Part shown: piece by piece, positions 1 through 15,000 of the stretch
How positions within the stretch are numbered: position 1 is the stretch's first letter
Layout: each line of letters begins with the position of its first letter
From: Carcharhinus longimanus
Lineage: Eukaryota
Reading direction: 5' to 3'
Length of the DNA: 64,000 nucleotides
NCBI GenBank assembly: GCA_030264375.1
Contig: JASCQW010000072.1
Location: 44,810,586-44,874,585, forward strand
Made by a program: the position numbers

Positions 1-3000
1 GCTAATGAGGCTGACTTGCTGGAGTATGAACTACCTGATGAGTCCTAATTGATGGTTAAATCAGGGAGCCTCATGCTTCCTATTTAAAGGAAGTGTGTCA
101 GACTCCCAGCCTGCATTCAATAGGGAGCAGCTGGAGAGCTGACTGTATATAGATGTATGGTGTAAATAAAGTAACTTGGTAGTGGGACTTTCACCTCTGT
201 GGAGTTATTACAGGTTTCCAGCTGGCTATGGTATGAAAGAAAGCATCTTGAGGTACTTACTTCACAGGTTGCCACGTTTCTTGTTCGAAGCTTTTATGAA
301 TAGACTGAGCAATTGCCGATTCCATTAGGTCAATGTAGCGGACCACCAGAGGAACAAAGAATTCTTGCAAATGTTTGTGATATTTTCCATTGCACAATTG
401 AGCTTTGAAAGAAGAAGAAGCTACATTAACTACACTGCAGATATATAAACATTTTTAATACAAATGTATCATTTAGATGTATGGGAACAAGGTAAACAGT
501 TTAATGATACTTGAAATGGCAATCAGAGAAGCTGCTGGGGCATAAATTAGAACAAAACACTTTTCAGATAATAACATCCGACATATGTCTATATATTGCC
601 TGTGATTTATTGTGTCAAACTCATAGATCTATCCAATTTTATGAGCATTCGGCAAGGGGCCAAACAGAGAAACATTTCACAGCAGGTTTTTTTCTGTCTG
701 TTCACAAAGGATTTATTGTGGCTGATTTACTTTACAATCATATTCAAAATTTCTGGAACTGTTTCTTGGCTTCTGCGGCTATGGTGACCTTGAGGACACT
801 GAAACGCACAGTCTTACTGAGGGGACGGCACCCCGCCACGGTCACACTGTTCCCATTCTGTACATCCCTGAAGCAGGGCGGTAAGTGAACAGACATGTTC
901 TTGTGTTGTTTCTCAAAGCGGTTGTACTTCCTGATGTAGTGCAGGTAGACTCTGTGAATAACAATGGTCCTCTGCATCTTCATCTTAGTCACAACACCTG
1001 TTAGGATCCGGCCCCAGATTGACACACTGCCTGTGAATGGACACTTCGTGTCAATGTAGGTCCCATCAATGGCCTCGAGTGGAGTNNNNNNNNNNNNNNN
1101 NNNNNNNNNNNNNNNNNNNNNNNNNNNNNNNNNNNNNNNNNNNNNNNNNNNNNNNNNNNNNNNNNNNNNNNNNNNNNNNNNNNNNATTGTCTTTTGGCAT
1201 TTTTGATGGATCTCTTTAGATCGTATCTTAGATCATAGCTGAAACGCTCCAGCCCAGGCAACAGAGAAACACCGATTGACATCTTTGTTTCTCTGATCTC
1301 TTTGTCAATTTTGTGTATTTATGTATACAAGATAAAGTGGACATAGCTTCAATGAAGGTCCATAGGGAGTTGATGGGGTTGCGGGGGGTGGTGGCATGAG
1401 TGGATGAGGGCTGCAAGTCCTTTCCAGTTTTAGTTTAATTACGTGCACCTCCCACAGCACCAAGATGTGCTTTTTAAACAGCTTGCTTTGACTCCTGCAA
1501 ACCCTAGGGCTGCCTTCAATTTTTTCCCTGTGTCAGCTGGTCCAACTGCAGCTCAGACTCATCCCCGTGTTCCCCACTGCAACATCTCGTGTTGAAGCTC
1601 ACACACTTAACAGCATTTTCCTAACTCCTGCTGCCCACCTTGAGGATCAATATCTATTGAAATTTCTTTTCCATTTCTGGCAATTCTGAGTTATATGTCG
1701 AAAATCAAATTTATTTTGCGTTTGTAAACCAAACAACACAATCATTTATTGTAAGGGGAACAATGTGCTGTTTAAACTAGAAAAATTCTGTTAGAATAAA
1801 GTATTCGAAGATGATCACCAGGAATTCTTTCAAACTGAAGGAGTGTTTGCAACAAATTGAGTGACCTGGAGTTTAACCCTGACTATCTTTCTTTCTATCT
1901 GCAGCTGATAATATTAAAGCAAAAAGATAAATCAGAGGGAATCTTCAGGCAGTTCCTGGTGGAAGACAAAGGCTTGCATGGAGGAGCTTCTTATGTGGAT
2001 TTCCTCTGCCATGTACACAAAGAGATCCGCCAACTCCTCACCTAAAGCCCTCAGTCCATTGCAAGAATATCTTTTTATTCAACCTCGCAGGAAAAAGGGA
2101 CAGTGGAAACTACATCGTTTAAAATTTATACCATTGTATTTTCTTCATGACTTTTGTTGTCAGGTCTTAACTTTTCTTAAGGAAAAACCTGTTTTGAACA
2201 TGCCAGCAACCTAGTATTTACTATTTTATAACAAATCAATTGTCAGAATCAAAATTCATTATAAAAACGTTGTTAATGTTAATACATATATATGATATAA
2301 ATGCACACATGTACAATTGACGGTATCAGTACTCTCATCTATGTATGTAGTTATGCTTTGGTTGATTTAAAACTGACTTCTTCATTGCATTGTCAGAACA
2401 TTGGCAGTAACAAACCACTAAGTTTGCCACATGGTGTTCAATCTGTCAGGTAATTTTTGTTTTAAACAATCCACCCTGTAGCTGAGTGTTTTGCTCTGAT
2501 CAGCTGGATGTTCGGGGAAGAGAAAGAGGAGCAGTTTGGTAATTTGCACACCAAAGCAAAACTACAGTGAAATGGAACAGTGTCATCCAAAGTTTTTATA
2601 TGATGCCAGTTGCTAGCAGTGGTTGCAGATGTTCTTCATGATGTATGAAATGTGCAATTGCAAGGTGGTGAAGTTAAGGGCAACTAAAGGAAACTAACCT
2701 AGAACTGAGCATTAACTGCAAGTCTTAATTTCAGGTGGGTTATTTTTGAAAATAATGGGTCAAATCCATGACCCCTCTAGTGATTCCTACAAGCGATTAA
2801 GAAATAATTAAGTTGTACTGTTCTAGTCATTGATCCTAATATCAAATTCCCTGAAGTTGTTGCTACAATAGAACATTAATAGGATAGAGTACCGAAAAAC
2901 CTTGTCAAGTCAGGGTATGCACACTTTTTCTATTATGTATCATCTGCTAAAATGATTTTCTGTATTTTTTTAATACTACGTTTTTCCAAGTAGAGTTAGA

Positions 3001-12000: not shown

Positions 12001-15000
12001 CGATTCCACTTCACTGTCCCTGCTAATTATTAACACTAGTCTTTTTATTGTCCTGAGACTACAAGACATCATTCGATTACTCATTTTCTTAAAGAGACGT
12101 ATATTTCAATGGAGATCTAAGAATATTGACTCTAAAATGCTTAATAAAAAGGTTACCACCTGTTCTCGTAATTCTATCTTCAAGCTTTAAAGTGATATAA
12201 ACAATTCCCCTAATTCGATAATGAGTCTTGTGAGACACACATGGAGTCAACCTTTGTCCAGAATGACCATTAGGTGCTTCCACAGTTAGTATGGTGAAGC
12301 AGTTGGAAGGATAGTTATCTAAATCCCTTCCCAACATACTTTTTAATCTTCATTGAAAACATTAGACAGTCATTCACAATTGTTCAGCATTACCTTTTAT
12401 GGTCTAATTCCATAATGATTGATTTTTGAGAATATTTGGGTCACTTGCGGATCTTACTCAGCAGTGTTGATTTTGACATTTTCAGACAAAGGTGAAAATG
12501 GGTCAAGAGGTTTCACATTTATAATTGTCTCAAATGTCCATCTGTTTTTTGCTAAAGAGGTGTACCACAGAAGAGAGCATTTTTCTGACTCCTGCTGTTC
12601 CTAATTCCCCATTTCTCTGGGAGGAATGGAAATGCAAAATTATCCTGTTCATTGTCTGATATCTCTCAGGTTACAGTTATGCTGCCGTGATGAAACAATC
12701 TCAATTAAGTTGCATTCATGCCCATATATTCACTTCTCAGTGCATACCTGGCCTCATTTTGAGAGCTTGGACAACATTTGTGCATAAAACATTGGTTCTC
12801 TAATGCCAAAAGTAAGTAGAATCAACAATAGATTCATAAAGACAACACAGAAATGACAAACAAGACAAAAAAAATAAGAATTTATGCAATTCTTGCTTTT
12901 AAAAATTCCAAATATTAGATAAGCAGCACTGTTCACTTGTTGACTGAGAAGTGTGCATGAAATGTCTTTAGCAGAATGCAAGTTGGTGAGAGAATAGTGA
13001 GTGCGATGGTGGAGCTCAGGTCTGAGTTATTTCAGGGAGGGGGGTGGTGTGGGTGGGTGGGTCTTTCCGGGGGGGGGGGCGGGGTCAGCAATCAAGGCAC
13101 TGGGGGAGGNNNNNNNNNNNNNNNNNNNNNNNNNNNNNNNNNNNNNNNNNNNNNNNNNNNNNNNNNNNNNNNNNNNNNNNNNNNNNNNNNNNNNNNNNNN
13201 NNNNNNNNNCGGGGGGCGGGGCGGGGCGCATGGTCAATGATGTGGGGTCATGGGGCGGGTCAGTGATTGGGAGGCCGGCAATGTGGGGCTACTGCACATG
13301 CATTGACCTCTGTGCATGTGCAGTGGCCTGCTCTACTGCCAGCCTCTCAGGTGGGAATAGGCCCCACCCACTGATTGTTAATGCAATTTATGTTCATGTT
13401 CTCTGCAGTATACAGAGCGTGGGAGATTCATTTTGAAGCTCCCGCTGAAAAAAACAGTGGGATTTAGTCCAGTTTTGCTATCACTGCTGGCCACATACCT
13501 CCAGACTAATAGAAATTGGGTCACCCCAAAACCGAGGGGTTGGGAAATATGCCGGTGCTTACAAAAGGGGAAGCAAATCAAAAACAGCTTTGTGTGTACA
13601 GATAGGTAATGAGGGGAAAATCAGAGTTTTTCAAACTAACCTCTCCCCTGCCTGTCCATAACAATTGCCATGCATATGTAGTTGTGCAAAAGTATTTAAA
13701 AGGGCTGCACACTTAAATAAATAGTCTGTGCAATCCCCAAAAAAATTAGACCAATGGCTGGAGTGTACCTAGGCAATACAGGCTGAGGATATCAGTGGGC
13801 TCCACATGATCTGCTAGGCCCATCAATAATAATGGACATAAAATCGCATGGGCCAGCTAATCACCCAGCATGAAACTTTGTCACATCCTCAGAAGATGCA
13901 AATTCTGTGCACTTTGCGTGCCAGTTTGTACAATTTACATTTACGTCTAAAGAATTATCTGTCAAAGTGTTATTCAAGAAATATACAAATGGAATTTTTC
14001 AAAGTAAGGTTAACACATCACTCCTAGAAGAAAAGATATTGCAGTAAAGCTCCAACAATTAAAGCAGCACAACTGAAGAGGAAATACAACAGATACTCAC
14101 ATTCATTCCTCAAATAATTATTGAGGAGTTGAAAAAGTGGAAAGGTGTCCCAAGAATCTGGGGGCTGTGCTTCAAGGGTTGCATCCATATCAACAGCAAA
14201 GAGTGACCAAAATATTTCTGCATGCTCTGCCATTAGGTCAGGCCACCAGGCAAAGGCCTACAAGACAATAAGCAAATTTCAGCTAAAATGTTAGCCAAGG
14301 CAGACAATTGTTAGCTACAGTCTCCTTGGTGACACTCCCAAATTGCTTGCGTTAAAAGAAATGAGGGGATGTGCAAAACCTTCCTCTACTTAAAAATTTC
14401 TATTGAGAAGTATGTCTGTGTATACACATTCTTCTAAAACCAAATGTAGAATTGTGGTTTTCAGTTGTTCAAAGCCAGCAGCAGCTCCCAGTTTGAAAAA
14501 CTTCAGCTGAATGATGCACCCTCATTGCTTTTGTCACATTTCCTTGACAGGAGCTTGTCTGACTTTGCAAGGAGGCTACTGAATAAAGCATCATGCATAA
14601 TTGTGAGGTATCTAATGCAAACGTGCAGTTAACTTGATTAAAACTTACTTATATGGTGCATTAACAACTGACCTGTGCAGGTTGTTGCTGTCTATGGCTC
14701 GGACAATGGTTTGGTGAGAACATTAAGGCTGTTAAAAAGGCAATAACTTTACTCTCATTCTATTTTCTTTTTTTTACCAATTTATTAGGGACAAGGTTTG
14801 AACACTTGGTGTTTCATCTGTAAAAATTTAGCTTTCCAATTCCATCTACTTCCAGTTCTTCTACCCCACCCTATTGTTATAAATACAAAATATAGGTCTA
14901 GTATATGAATTACTTCCTGTCATGTGCTATGTAATGAATTGTGTGACGACAGGCTGCGAATGTGACAAGTGGTATTGAATTTTCTTTCTTTTGGCTAAGG

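What the first reader, a model, noticed from the sequence alone, without database searches (positions are those of the whole stretch)
261..14257. Intact SEC24C/D terminal exon antisense inside a CADPS2 intron: possible interleaved overlapping genes
Seen: two phase-compatible CADPS2-like exons (14101-14257 and 261-402, minus) bracket a plus-strand SEC24C/D last exon with a good acceptor, open frame, stop and UTR-like tail. No other SEC24 exon is recognisable between 403 and 1904. Known: human CADPS2 (7q31, beside FEZF1), SEC24C (10q22) and SEC24D (4q26) are unlinked. Inference: unless the upstream SEC24 exons are hidden in the gap at 1086-1185, they lie left of the window. The CADPS2 exon at 261-402 would then sit in a SEC24 intron, giving exon-interleaved antisense genes that both act in the secretory pathway. 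Alternatives are a duplicated SEC24 fragment or a misplaced contig between the gaps at 1086-1185 and 13110-13209.
[Added by the scan's program, not by the reader: the finding's places include an assembly gap (unread letters, written N; its length is only estimated) at 1086 to 1185, 9333 to 9432, 13110 to 13209. Whether the letters on both sides are continuous or in frame is not known: test that first.]
Basis: partly seen in the sequence, partly recalled or inferred. Interest (0 to 1): 0.8.

Follow-up and report, generated by a model that had tools for sequence, protein, structure and literature searches.

The report
Stray SEC24D last exon in CADPS2 intron
A single, perfectly preserved last exon of the COPII coat gene SEC24D lies antisense between two neighbouring CADPS2 exons of a fragmented shark scaffold; it is most likely a stray copied gene fragment or a misplaced contig, not two interwoven genes.

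Summary
1905-2045 (+) is a complete SEC24D terminal coding exon, not SEC24C: 46 of 46 residues match Mustelus asterias Sec24D. It has a good acceptor and its own stop. It lies between two CADPS2 exons (14257-14101 and 402-261, minus) that are consecutive in shark CADPS2 proteins.

The interleaved-genes reading is not supported:
- tblastn with 7 cartilaginous-fish SEC24D proteins finds no other SEC24D exon in the 64 kb.
- In 17 of 17 elasmobranch species with data, SEC24D and CADPS2 sit on contigs of different length.
- The piece keeps its intron end and has no poly(A) tail, so it is genomic DNA, not a retrocopy.

Everything depends on three 100-N gaps:
- **9333-9432** is spurious, because the contig ends share 10 nt.
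- **13110-13209** lies inside a G-rich tract present on both sides, which points to true adjacency with the CADPS2 contig.
- **1086-1185** has no support. The left contig ends inside an RPS11 retrocopy.

Best reading (about 0.5): a recent DNA-level copy of the SEC24D 3' end inserted in the CADPS2 intron, inert as a gene. Main rival (about 0.35): the true SEC24D 3' contigs were mis-scaffolded here. Both are ordinary, so interest is low.

The parts
1905..2045 (+). SEC24D terminal coding exon (46 codons + TAA)
   Evidence: 46/46 to Mustelus asterias Sec24D; ends ...QLLT* like all 21 cartilaginous-fish sequences compared
1878..1904 (+). 3' splice site: ctgac branch-like motif, pyrimidine tract, cag
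   Evidence: read. Two Callorhinchus SEC24D models (P0022, P0023) diverge exactly before LVIVKQ, and the intron-retaining one reads SFYLQ as the window does
1186..1904 (+). upstream sequence of the unit (presumed end of the SEC24D last intron); no SEC24D exon in it
   Evidence: no HSP here for any of 7 SEC24D queries at E<=10. ORF 1231-1434(-) matches only tandem-repeat-like proteins
2046..3728 (+). putative 3'UTR up to the first AATAAA (3723); no poly(A) tail after it
   Evidence: the extent as a UTR is inferred
14101..14257 (-). CADPS2 exon (MUN domain), upstream partner
261..402 (-). CADPS2 exon (MUN domain), next exon in the mRNA
687..1085 (-). RPS11 processed retrocopy (about residues 46-158, stop 744-746, AATAAA 712-717, A7 687-693), cut off by the contig end
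   Evidence: Ribosomal_S17 E 1.6e-24; S17_N positions 42-69 of 69; sequence
1086..1185 (.). gap 1: no evidence that the flanks are continuous
   Evidence: no overlap, z 1.1; no S17_N signal in the 3 minus-strand ORFs tested right of the gap
9323..9442 (.). gap 2 with an identical 10-mer (TATGGTGGTC) on both contig ends: the contigs abut
   Evidence: overlap of 10 nt or more in 10 of 200000 random position pairs
13003..13260 (.). gap 3 inside a G-rich tract present on both flanks, same strand

Best explanation
A recent DNA-level (not RNA-mediated) copy of the 3' end of the shark's own SEC24D gene sits inside a roughly 13.7-kb CADPS2 intron, antisense to CADPS2. The copy comprises the end of the last intron, the terminal exon and the downstream sequence. 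It is an orphan gene fragment. With one of SEC24D's many coding exons and no promoter of its own in view, it cannot make SEC24D and most likely does nothing. CADPS2 splices across it. Shown: the identity of the exon, its genomic (intron-bearing) nature, its isolation, and the CADPS2 exon order. Inferred: that the 11.8-kb unit 1186-13109 really lies here, and that a canonical SEC24D exists elsewhere in this genome.
For: Exon identity:
- 46/46 to Mustelus Sec24D. It carries His at position 36, which 3 of the 21 cartilaginous-fish sequences compared also have: both Mustelus models and S. canicula. Among the listed hits, 4 of 87 in-register sequences have it. The source is therefore this lineage's own SEC24D.

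Genomic, not a retrocopy:
- The acceptor and pyrimidine tract are kept.
- No A-run of 8 or more follows any poly(A) signal in 2046-9332.

The exon stands alone:
- For 7 SEC24D queries the only HSP below E 0.6 is 1884/1890-2042.
- 20 further ORFs of the unit gave no Pfam hit above its cut-off.

Placement:
- Gap 9333-9432 is closed by a 10-nt terminal overlap.
- At gap 13110-13209 both ends are 54-60% G on the same strand. They are the only 2 of 32 contig ends at or above 50% G. Windows of 50 nt that G-rich are 169 of 61465.
- The two flanks share a 16/17 motif, a score reached by 14 of 2000 composition-matched shuffles.
- All 7 contigs that carry CADPS2 exons are in the right order and strand.
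- With the unit in place the intron is 13.7 kb, within the 7-15 kb of the window's other CADPS2 introns.

Precedent: Mustelus asterias has a second, 348-aa 'Sec24D-like' model that is 336/336 identical to the full gene.
Against: - No sequence evidence bridges gap 1086-1185. The left contig stops inside a retrocopy and the right one starts near repeat-like sequence.
- Both ends of the SEC24D-bearing unit coincide with gaps, as a misplaced unit's ends would.
- The exon shows no decay at all: 46/46, with intact acceptor and stop. That fits the canonical exon as well as a young copy.
- G-rich ends could themselves mislead a scaffolder.
- No second SEC24D copy of this species could be looked at, and no vertebrate DNA collection was available.
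Confidence: 0.5

Rival explanations
1. Scaffolding artefact. The two abutting contigs 1186-9332 and 9433-13109 are the true 3' end of the canonical SEC24D locus. They were slotted by the scaffolder into an unassembled stretch of the CADPS2 intron.
For: - The window has 16 gaps in 64 kb, 14 of them a fixed 100 N, so joins carry no size or sequence evidence.
- Gap 1 has no support.
- The unit's two limits are both gaps.
- The exon is identical in protein to the canonical Mustelus exon and fully intact.
- SEC24D lies on another chromosome-sized contig than CADPS2 in 17 of 17 elasmobranchs.
- A duplicated SEC24D 3' half, as annotated in Mustelus, would make such contigs hard to place.
Against: - The same-strand G-rich tract and shared motif on both sides of gap 13110-13209.
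- 7 of 7 testable contigs of this scaffold are placed correctly.
- At 11.8 kb the unit is large for a stray insert.
- No downstream neighbour gene of SEC24D was recognised in the 11 kb after the stop, though none need be that close.
Confidence: 0.35
2. A complete SEC24 gene on the + strand ends here, with its upstream exons left of the window, so that CADPS2 exon 261-402 lies in a SEC24 intron and the exons of two secretory-pathway genes alternate.
For: The terminal exon is intact, with a good acceptor and a UTR-like tail. Nothing left of position 1 can be seen.
Against: - Only 1 SEC24D exon lies among 7 CADPS2 exons in 64 kb.
- The link to the left rests on gap 1 alone.
- Canonical SEC24D is unlinked to CADPS2 in 17 of 17 relatives, including the nearest, Mustelus (202,110,868 vs 140,039,266 bp contigs).
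- A contiguous inserted copy cannot straddle a host exon.
Confidence: 0.03
3. A 5'-truncated retrocopy of SEC24D mRNA or pre-mRNA inserted by LINE machinery, like the RPS11 retrocopy beside it.
For: A processed RPS11 retrocopy lies 800 nt away, so retroposition has hit this intron.
Against: - Homology stops exactly at the splice acceptor, with intron-type sequence upstream.
- No A-run of 8 or more follows any poly(A) signal. An old, decayed tail cannot be excluded, but the exon itself shows no decay.
Confidence: 0.03

Closest known systems
Orphan exon or partial gene duplicate left by segmental duplication (gene fragment / unprocessed pseudogene)
   Same: Genomic structure is kept (intron end, acceptor, exon, downstream sequence). 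There is only a fragment of the parent gene, at a locus unlinked to the parent, with no sign of its own promoter.
   Different: No decay is visible in 46 codons. The copy's limits are hidden by assembly gaps. The parent copy in the same genome was not seen.
Mis-scaffolded contig in a short-read draft assembly
   Same: Small contigs are bounded by fixed 100-N gaps. The gene content contradicts synteny in 17 relatives.
   Different: One of the two outer joins (13110-13209) has sequence support from a shared G-rich tract. The rest of the scaffold is colinear with CADPS2.
Mustelus asterias 'Sec24D-like' 348-aa model (P0248)
   Same: A second annotated copy of the SEC24D 3' part in the closest annotated relative, ending in the same 46 residues.
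   Different: It covers 336 residues (many exons) and sits on a contig of the same length as SEC24D itself, not on the CADPS2 contig.
Host/nested antisense gene pairs in vertebrate introns
   Same: A piece of one gene lies antisense inside an intron of another.
   Different: Nested genes are complete transcription units. Here only a terminal exon is present. Known only from the search listing and general knowledge; no paper was read.

Membership tests
SEC24D orthologue, terminal coding exon | End-to-end match to the SEC24D C-terminus, closer to SEC24D than to SEC24C | tested here: met
   46/46 to Mustelus Sec24D. All named rows among the 120 listed are SEC24D, a few under generic labels. Human Sec24C scores slightly higher than human Sec24D in PDB (63.2 vs 59.9 bits), so the assignment rests on the shark orthologues.
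SEC24D orthologue, terminal coding exon | Stop codon and splice boundary at the conserved positions | tested here: met
   It ends ...QLLT* like 21 of 21 cartilaginous-fish sequences. The AG is at 1903-1904. The two Callorhinchus models diverge at the same point.
Complete SEC24D gene | The other exons (zinc finger, trunk, beta-barrel, helical and gelsolin-like domains) in cis | tested here: not met
   tblastn with 7 proteins, word size 2, E<=10: no second exon in the 64 kb. Sequence left of the window and inside gap 1 is not testable.
Exon-interleaved antisense gene pair | Exons of two complete genes alternate on opposite strands of continuous DNA | tested here: not met
   1 SEC24D exon against 7 CADPS2 exons. 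Continuity across gap 1 is unsupported.
Exon-interleaved antisense gene pair | Linkage of the two genes in related genomes | tested here: not met
   17 of 17 elasmobranch species have the two proteins on contigs of different length. Contig length is used as a proxy for contig identity.
Exon-interleaved antisense gene pair | Transcripts spliced into 1905 | not testable with these tools
   No RNA-seq data were available.
Processed retrocopy (for the SEC24D piece) | No intron sequence, poly(A) tail, target-site duplications | tested here: not met
   The acceptor and intron end are retained. No A-run of 8 or more in 2046-9332 follows a poly(A) signal. Target-site duplications are not testable because the limits lie in gaps.
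CADPS2 (CAPS2), MUN-domain exons | Consecutive, phase-compatible exons matching CADPS2 orthologues | tested here: met
   MUN profile positions 77-135 and 141-179. 52/52 and 47/47 to Mustelus CADPS2 868-919 and 921-967. Borders read.

The most novel reading that the evidence does not exclude
The SEC24D fragment is really in the CADPS2 intron and is used. Its intact acceptor, 46-codon frame, stop and poly(A) signals would serve as the terminal exon of a new plus-strand transcript, either a chimeric gene or a natural antisense RNA running against the 3' half of CADPS2. That would couple a COPII-derived module to a regulator of dense-core vesicle secretion. The fullest form is a second SEC24D paralogue interleaved with CADPS2.
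Probability: 0.05. Interest if true: 0.6.

Novelty: new member of a known kind. Interest (0 to 1): 0.15.

Why it matters
If the fragment is really there, it is one more young unprocessed gene fragment in a shark genome. It would be of minor use as a marker of segmental duplication around SEC24D in carcharhiniform sharks. It is also a trap for gene predictors, which could report a false SEC24D-like gene or antisense overlap. If it is a misplaced contig, it flags an assembly error that removes the last exon from the real SEC24D model. Neither outcome changes what is known about COPII or CAPS biology.

Tried and rejected
- **Dynein lead.** ORF 1231-1434(-) gave a sub-threshold Pfam hit to Dynein_AAA_lid (E 0.008, 16.7 bits against a cut-off of 23.1). 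PDB gave nothing at E<=1. The 1.84-billion-protein scan gave only 2 hits, both tandem-repeat-like proteins with 11 and 4 matched stretches. The ORF is repeat-derived, not a dynein exon.\n- **Downstream neighbour gene or transposon protein in 2046-13109.** 20 ORFs were scanned in Pfam. Nothing reached a curated cut-off.\n- **RPS11 continuation right of gap 1.** None was found in the 3 minus-strand ORFs tested. Shorter pieces next to the gap were not tested.\n- **G-rich tract as a dispersed repeat.** No pair among 6 G-rich regions reached an alignment score of 30. blastn of the 6 gap flanks found no other copies in the window.\n- **His36 as a sign of decay.** Rejected. His occurs in Mustelus and S. 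canicula SEC24D and in 4 of 87 in-register hits. The 33 of 120 hits that my register filter dropped, those printed being cyprinid-type sequences, were not counted.\n- **Structured RNAs.** Rfam and tRNA scans of the whole window found 0 matches.\n- **Literature.** 'SEC24D' with 'CADPS2' gave 4 papers whose titles point to unrelated expression and genetics studies (listing only). A search on interleaved or nested antisense genes was seen as a listing only. No paper was read.\n- **Slips.** One search was a wrong-frame translation and an input error (frames with stops).
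Full report
**What is there**

The window is part of a CADPS2 gene on the minus strand of a shark scaffold. 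tblastn with 11 elasmobranch CADPS2 proteins, and then with two Mustelus asterias isoforms, places seven exons in colinear order. They are 63717-63613, 55294-55226, 47837-47706, 32810-32706 (present only in longer isoforms), 24503-24381, 14257-14101 and 402-261.

Within exon limits, all but one residue match Mustelus CADPS2. The exception is Asn/His in 63717-63613. The other mismatches sit at HSP ends that run past splice sites. The source is therefore a close relative of Mustelus, a carcharhiniform shark. I did not try to name it further.

The two exons of the finding:
- Both match the MUN domain, at profile positions 77-135 and 141-179.
- They are adjacent in every shark protein compared, for example Mustelus 868-919 and 921-967.
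- They have ag/gt borders.
- They share a split codon, T plus CT, which reads Ser. Mustelus has Ser at that position.

I read that codon by eye. Exons were searched one by one, and the joined, spliced model was not searched or folded.

**The SEC24 exon**

1905-2045 (+) gives 46 residues and TAA.
- In PDB it matches only the extreme C-termini of human Sec24C (E 6.5e-17) and Sec24D (E 7.9e-16).
- In the large protein set, all named rows among the 120 listed are SEC24D, a few under generic labels.
- Against 21 cartilaginous-fish SEC24D C-termini it is 46/46 to both Mustelus models, 45/46 to Carcharodon and Heterodontus, 44/46 to Cetorhinus, S. canicula and Rhincodon, and 39-43/46 to the remaining 14.
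- The one residue that looked odd, His36, is shared with Mustelus and S. canicula. It occurs in 4 of 87 in-register hits; 33 of 120 hits were dropped by my register filter.

So this is SEC24D, in the version of this shark's own lineage, with no sign of decay.

Homology begins exactly after ctttctttctatctgcag. Two Callorhinchus SEC24D models diverge at that same point. The intron-retaining one even reads SFYLQ before the exon, as the window does. The first AATAAA is at 3723, and no A-run of 8 or more follows any signal. The piece is therefore genomic DNA with its intron end, not a retrocopy.

**It stands alone**

Seven SEC24D proteins searched with word size 2 and E<=10 give one HSP, at 1884/1890-2042. 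Nothing else scores better than E 0.6 anywhere in the 64 kb. Twenty further ORFs of the unit give no Pfam family above its cut-off. Rfam and tRNA scans are empty.

A weak Dynein_AAA_lid hit for ORF 1231-1434(-) dissolved on checking. PDB gave nothing. The full-library scan found only two tandem-repeat-like proteins.

**The gaps (tested first, as asked)**

The window has 16 gaps, 14 of them exactly 100 N, so it is a very fragmented draft. I analysed only the flanks and did not fill or look up any gap.

- **Gap 9333-9432.** The left contig ends, and the right contig begins, with the same 10 nt. Two other gaps in the window show 45-nt and 23-nt overlaps. Random position pairs reach 10 nt or more in 10 of 200000 trials. 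Contigs 1186-9332 and 9433-13109 therefore form one 11.8-kb unit.
- **Gap 13110-13209.** Both contig ends are 54-60% G on the same strand. They are the only 2 of 32 contig ends at or above 50% G. Windows of 50 nt that G-rich are 169 of 61465, in six clusters. The flanks share a 16/17 motif, a score reached by 14 of 2000 composition-matched shuffles. The tract is not a repeat shared with other G-rich spots of the window. The simplest reading is one G-rich tract that broke the assembly, so the unit truly abuts the contig carrying CADPS2 exon 14257-14101. This is support, not proof, because low-complexity ends could also mislead a scaffolder.
- **Gap 1086-1185.** There is no overlap and no similarity (z 1.1). 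The left contig ends inside an RPS11 processed retrocopy: Ribosomal_S17 E 1.6e-24, covering only positions 42-69 of the N-terminal profile. No continuation was found in the 3 ORFs tested right of the gap. Whether the letters on the two sides are continuous is unknown.

**Synteny**

The protein tables give the length of the contig that carries each protein. For 17 of 17 elasmobranch species with both values, SEC24D and CADPS2 lie on contigs of different length. Examples are Mustelus 202,110,868 vs 140,039,266, Carcharodon 274,107,945 vs 91,247,695, and S. canicula 277,254,249 vs 98,274,498.

The canonical SEC24D gene is therefore not at the CADPS2 locus in this group. Contig length stands in for contig identity here. 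The test cannot see unannotated fragments.

**Interpretation**

A contiguous inserted piece cannot straddle a host exon. A complete SEC24D running leftwards across CADPS2 exon 261-402 also contradicts the synteny and rests on the one unsupported gap. I put the interleaved-gene reading at about 0.03.

Two ordinary readings remain.

(a) A recent DNA-level copy of the SEC24D 3' end inserted in the intron, about 0.5. In its favour:
- the support at gap 3;
- the correct placement of all 7 testable contigs of this scaffold;
- an intron length, with the unit in place, of 13.7 kb, in the 7-15 kb range of the neighbouring introns;
- a precedent in Mustelus, where a separate 348-aa 'Sec24D-like' model is 336/336 identical to the full gene.

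(b) The true SEC24D 3' contigs were mis-scaffolded here, about 0.35. In its favour:
- both limits of the unit are gaps;
- the exon is identical in protein to the canonical Mustelus exon;
- the draft quality is poor.

In either case the fragment has no visible means of expression, and CADPS2 would splice over it.

**What stayed unchecked**

- No vertebrate genome DNA, reads or RNA-seq were available. The limits of the copy, its nucleotide divergence from the parent and its presence in other sharks are therefore open.
- Literature: 'SEC24D' with 'CADPS2' returned 4 papers whose titles point to unrelated expression and genetics studies (listing only). A listing on nested and antisense genes was seen. 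No paper was read and no supplements were consulted.

Noticed in passing
window 687-1085 (-): Processed RPS11 retrocopy in the CADPS2 intron. It has an open frame for about residues 46-158, a stop at 744-746, AATAAA at 712-717 and a 7-A remnant at 687-693. Its 5' part is cut off by the contig end at gap 1086.
   Followed up: partly
window gaps 9333-9432, 25234-25333, 35841-35940: Three of the 16 gaps separate contigs whose ends overlap exactly by 10, 45 and 23 nt. These 100-N gaps are probably spurious and the contigs abut.
   Followed up: yes
P0248 vs P0252 (Mustelus asterias): A separate 348-aa 'Sec24D-like' model is 336/336 identical to the full-length Sec24D and lies on a contig of the same length. 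It is either a recent duplication of the SEC24D 3' half or a false duplication in that assembly.
   Followed up: partly
P0023 vs P0022 (Callorhinchus milii): One UniRef SEC24D model appears to read through the end of the last intron (…HSFYLQ|LVIVKQ). The same five residues precede the exon in the window, so the acceptor region seems conserved between chimaera and shark.
   Followed up: no
window 32706-32810 (-): A CADPS2 exon matched only by the longer isoforms, for example 34/35 to S. torazame X12 and S. canicula X6. It is likely an alternatively spliced cassette exon.
   Followed up: no
window 1231-1434 (-): An open frame whose only relatives in 1.84 billion proteins are two tandem-repeat-like proteins, with 11 and 4 matched stretches. 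It is probably a piece of a repeat family near the left end of the SEC24D-bearing contig.
   Followed up: partly
window 7118-7344: Two tandem copies of a 116-nt unit, 86% alike.
   Followed up: no
window about 41150-41553 (+), across gap 41272-41371: Open frames on both sides of the gap look, from memory only, like reverse-transcriptase and C-terminal motifs of a fish LINE. This was not tested against any library.
   Followed up: no
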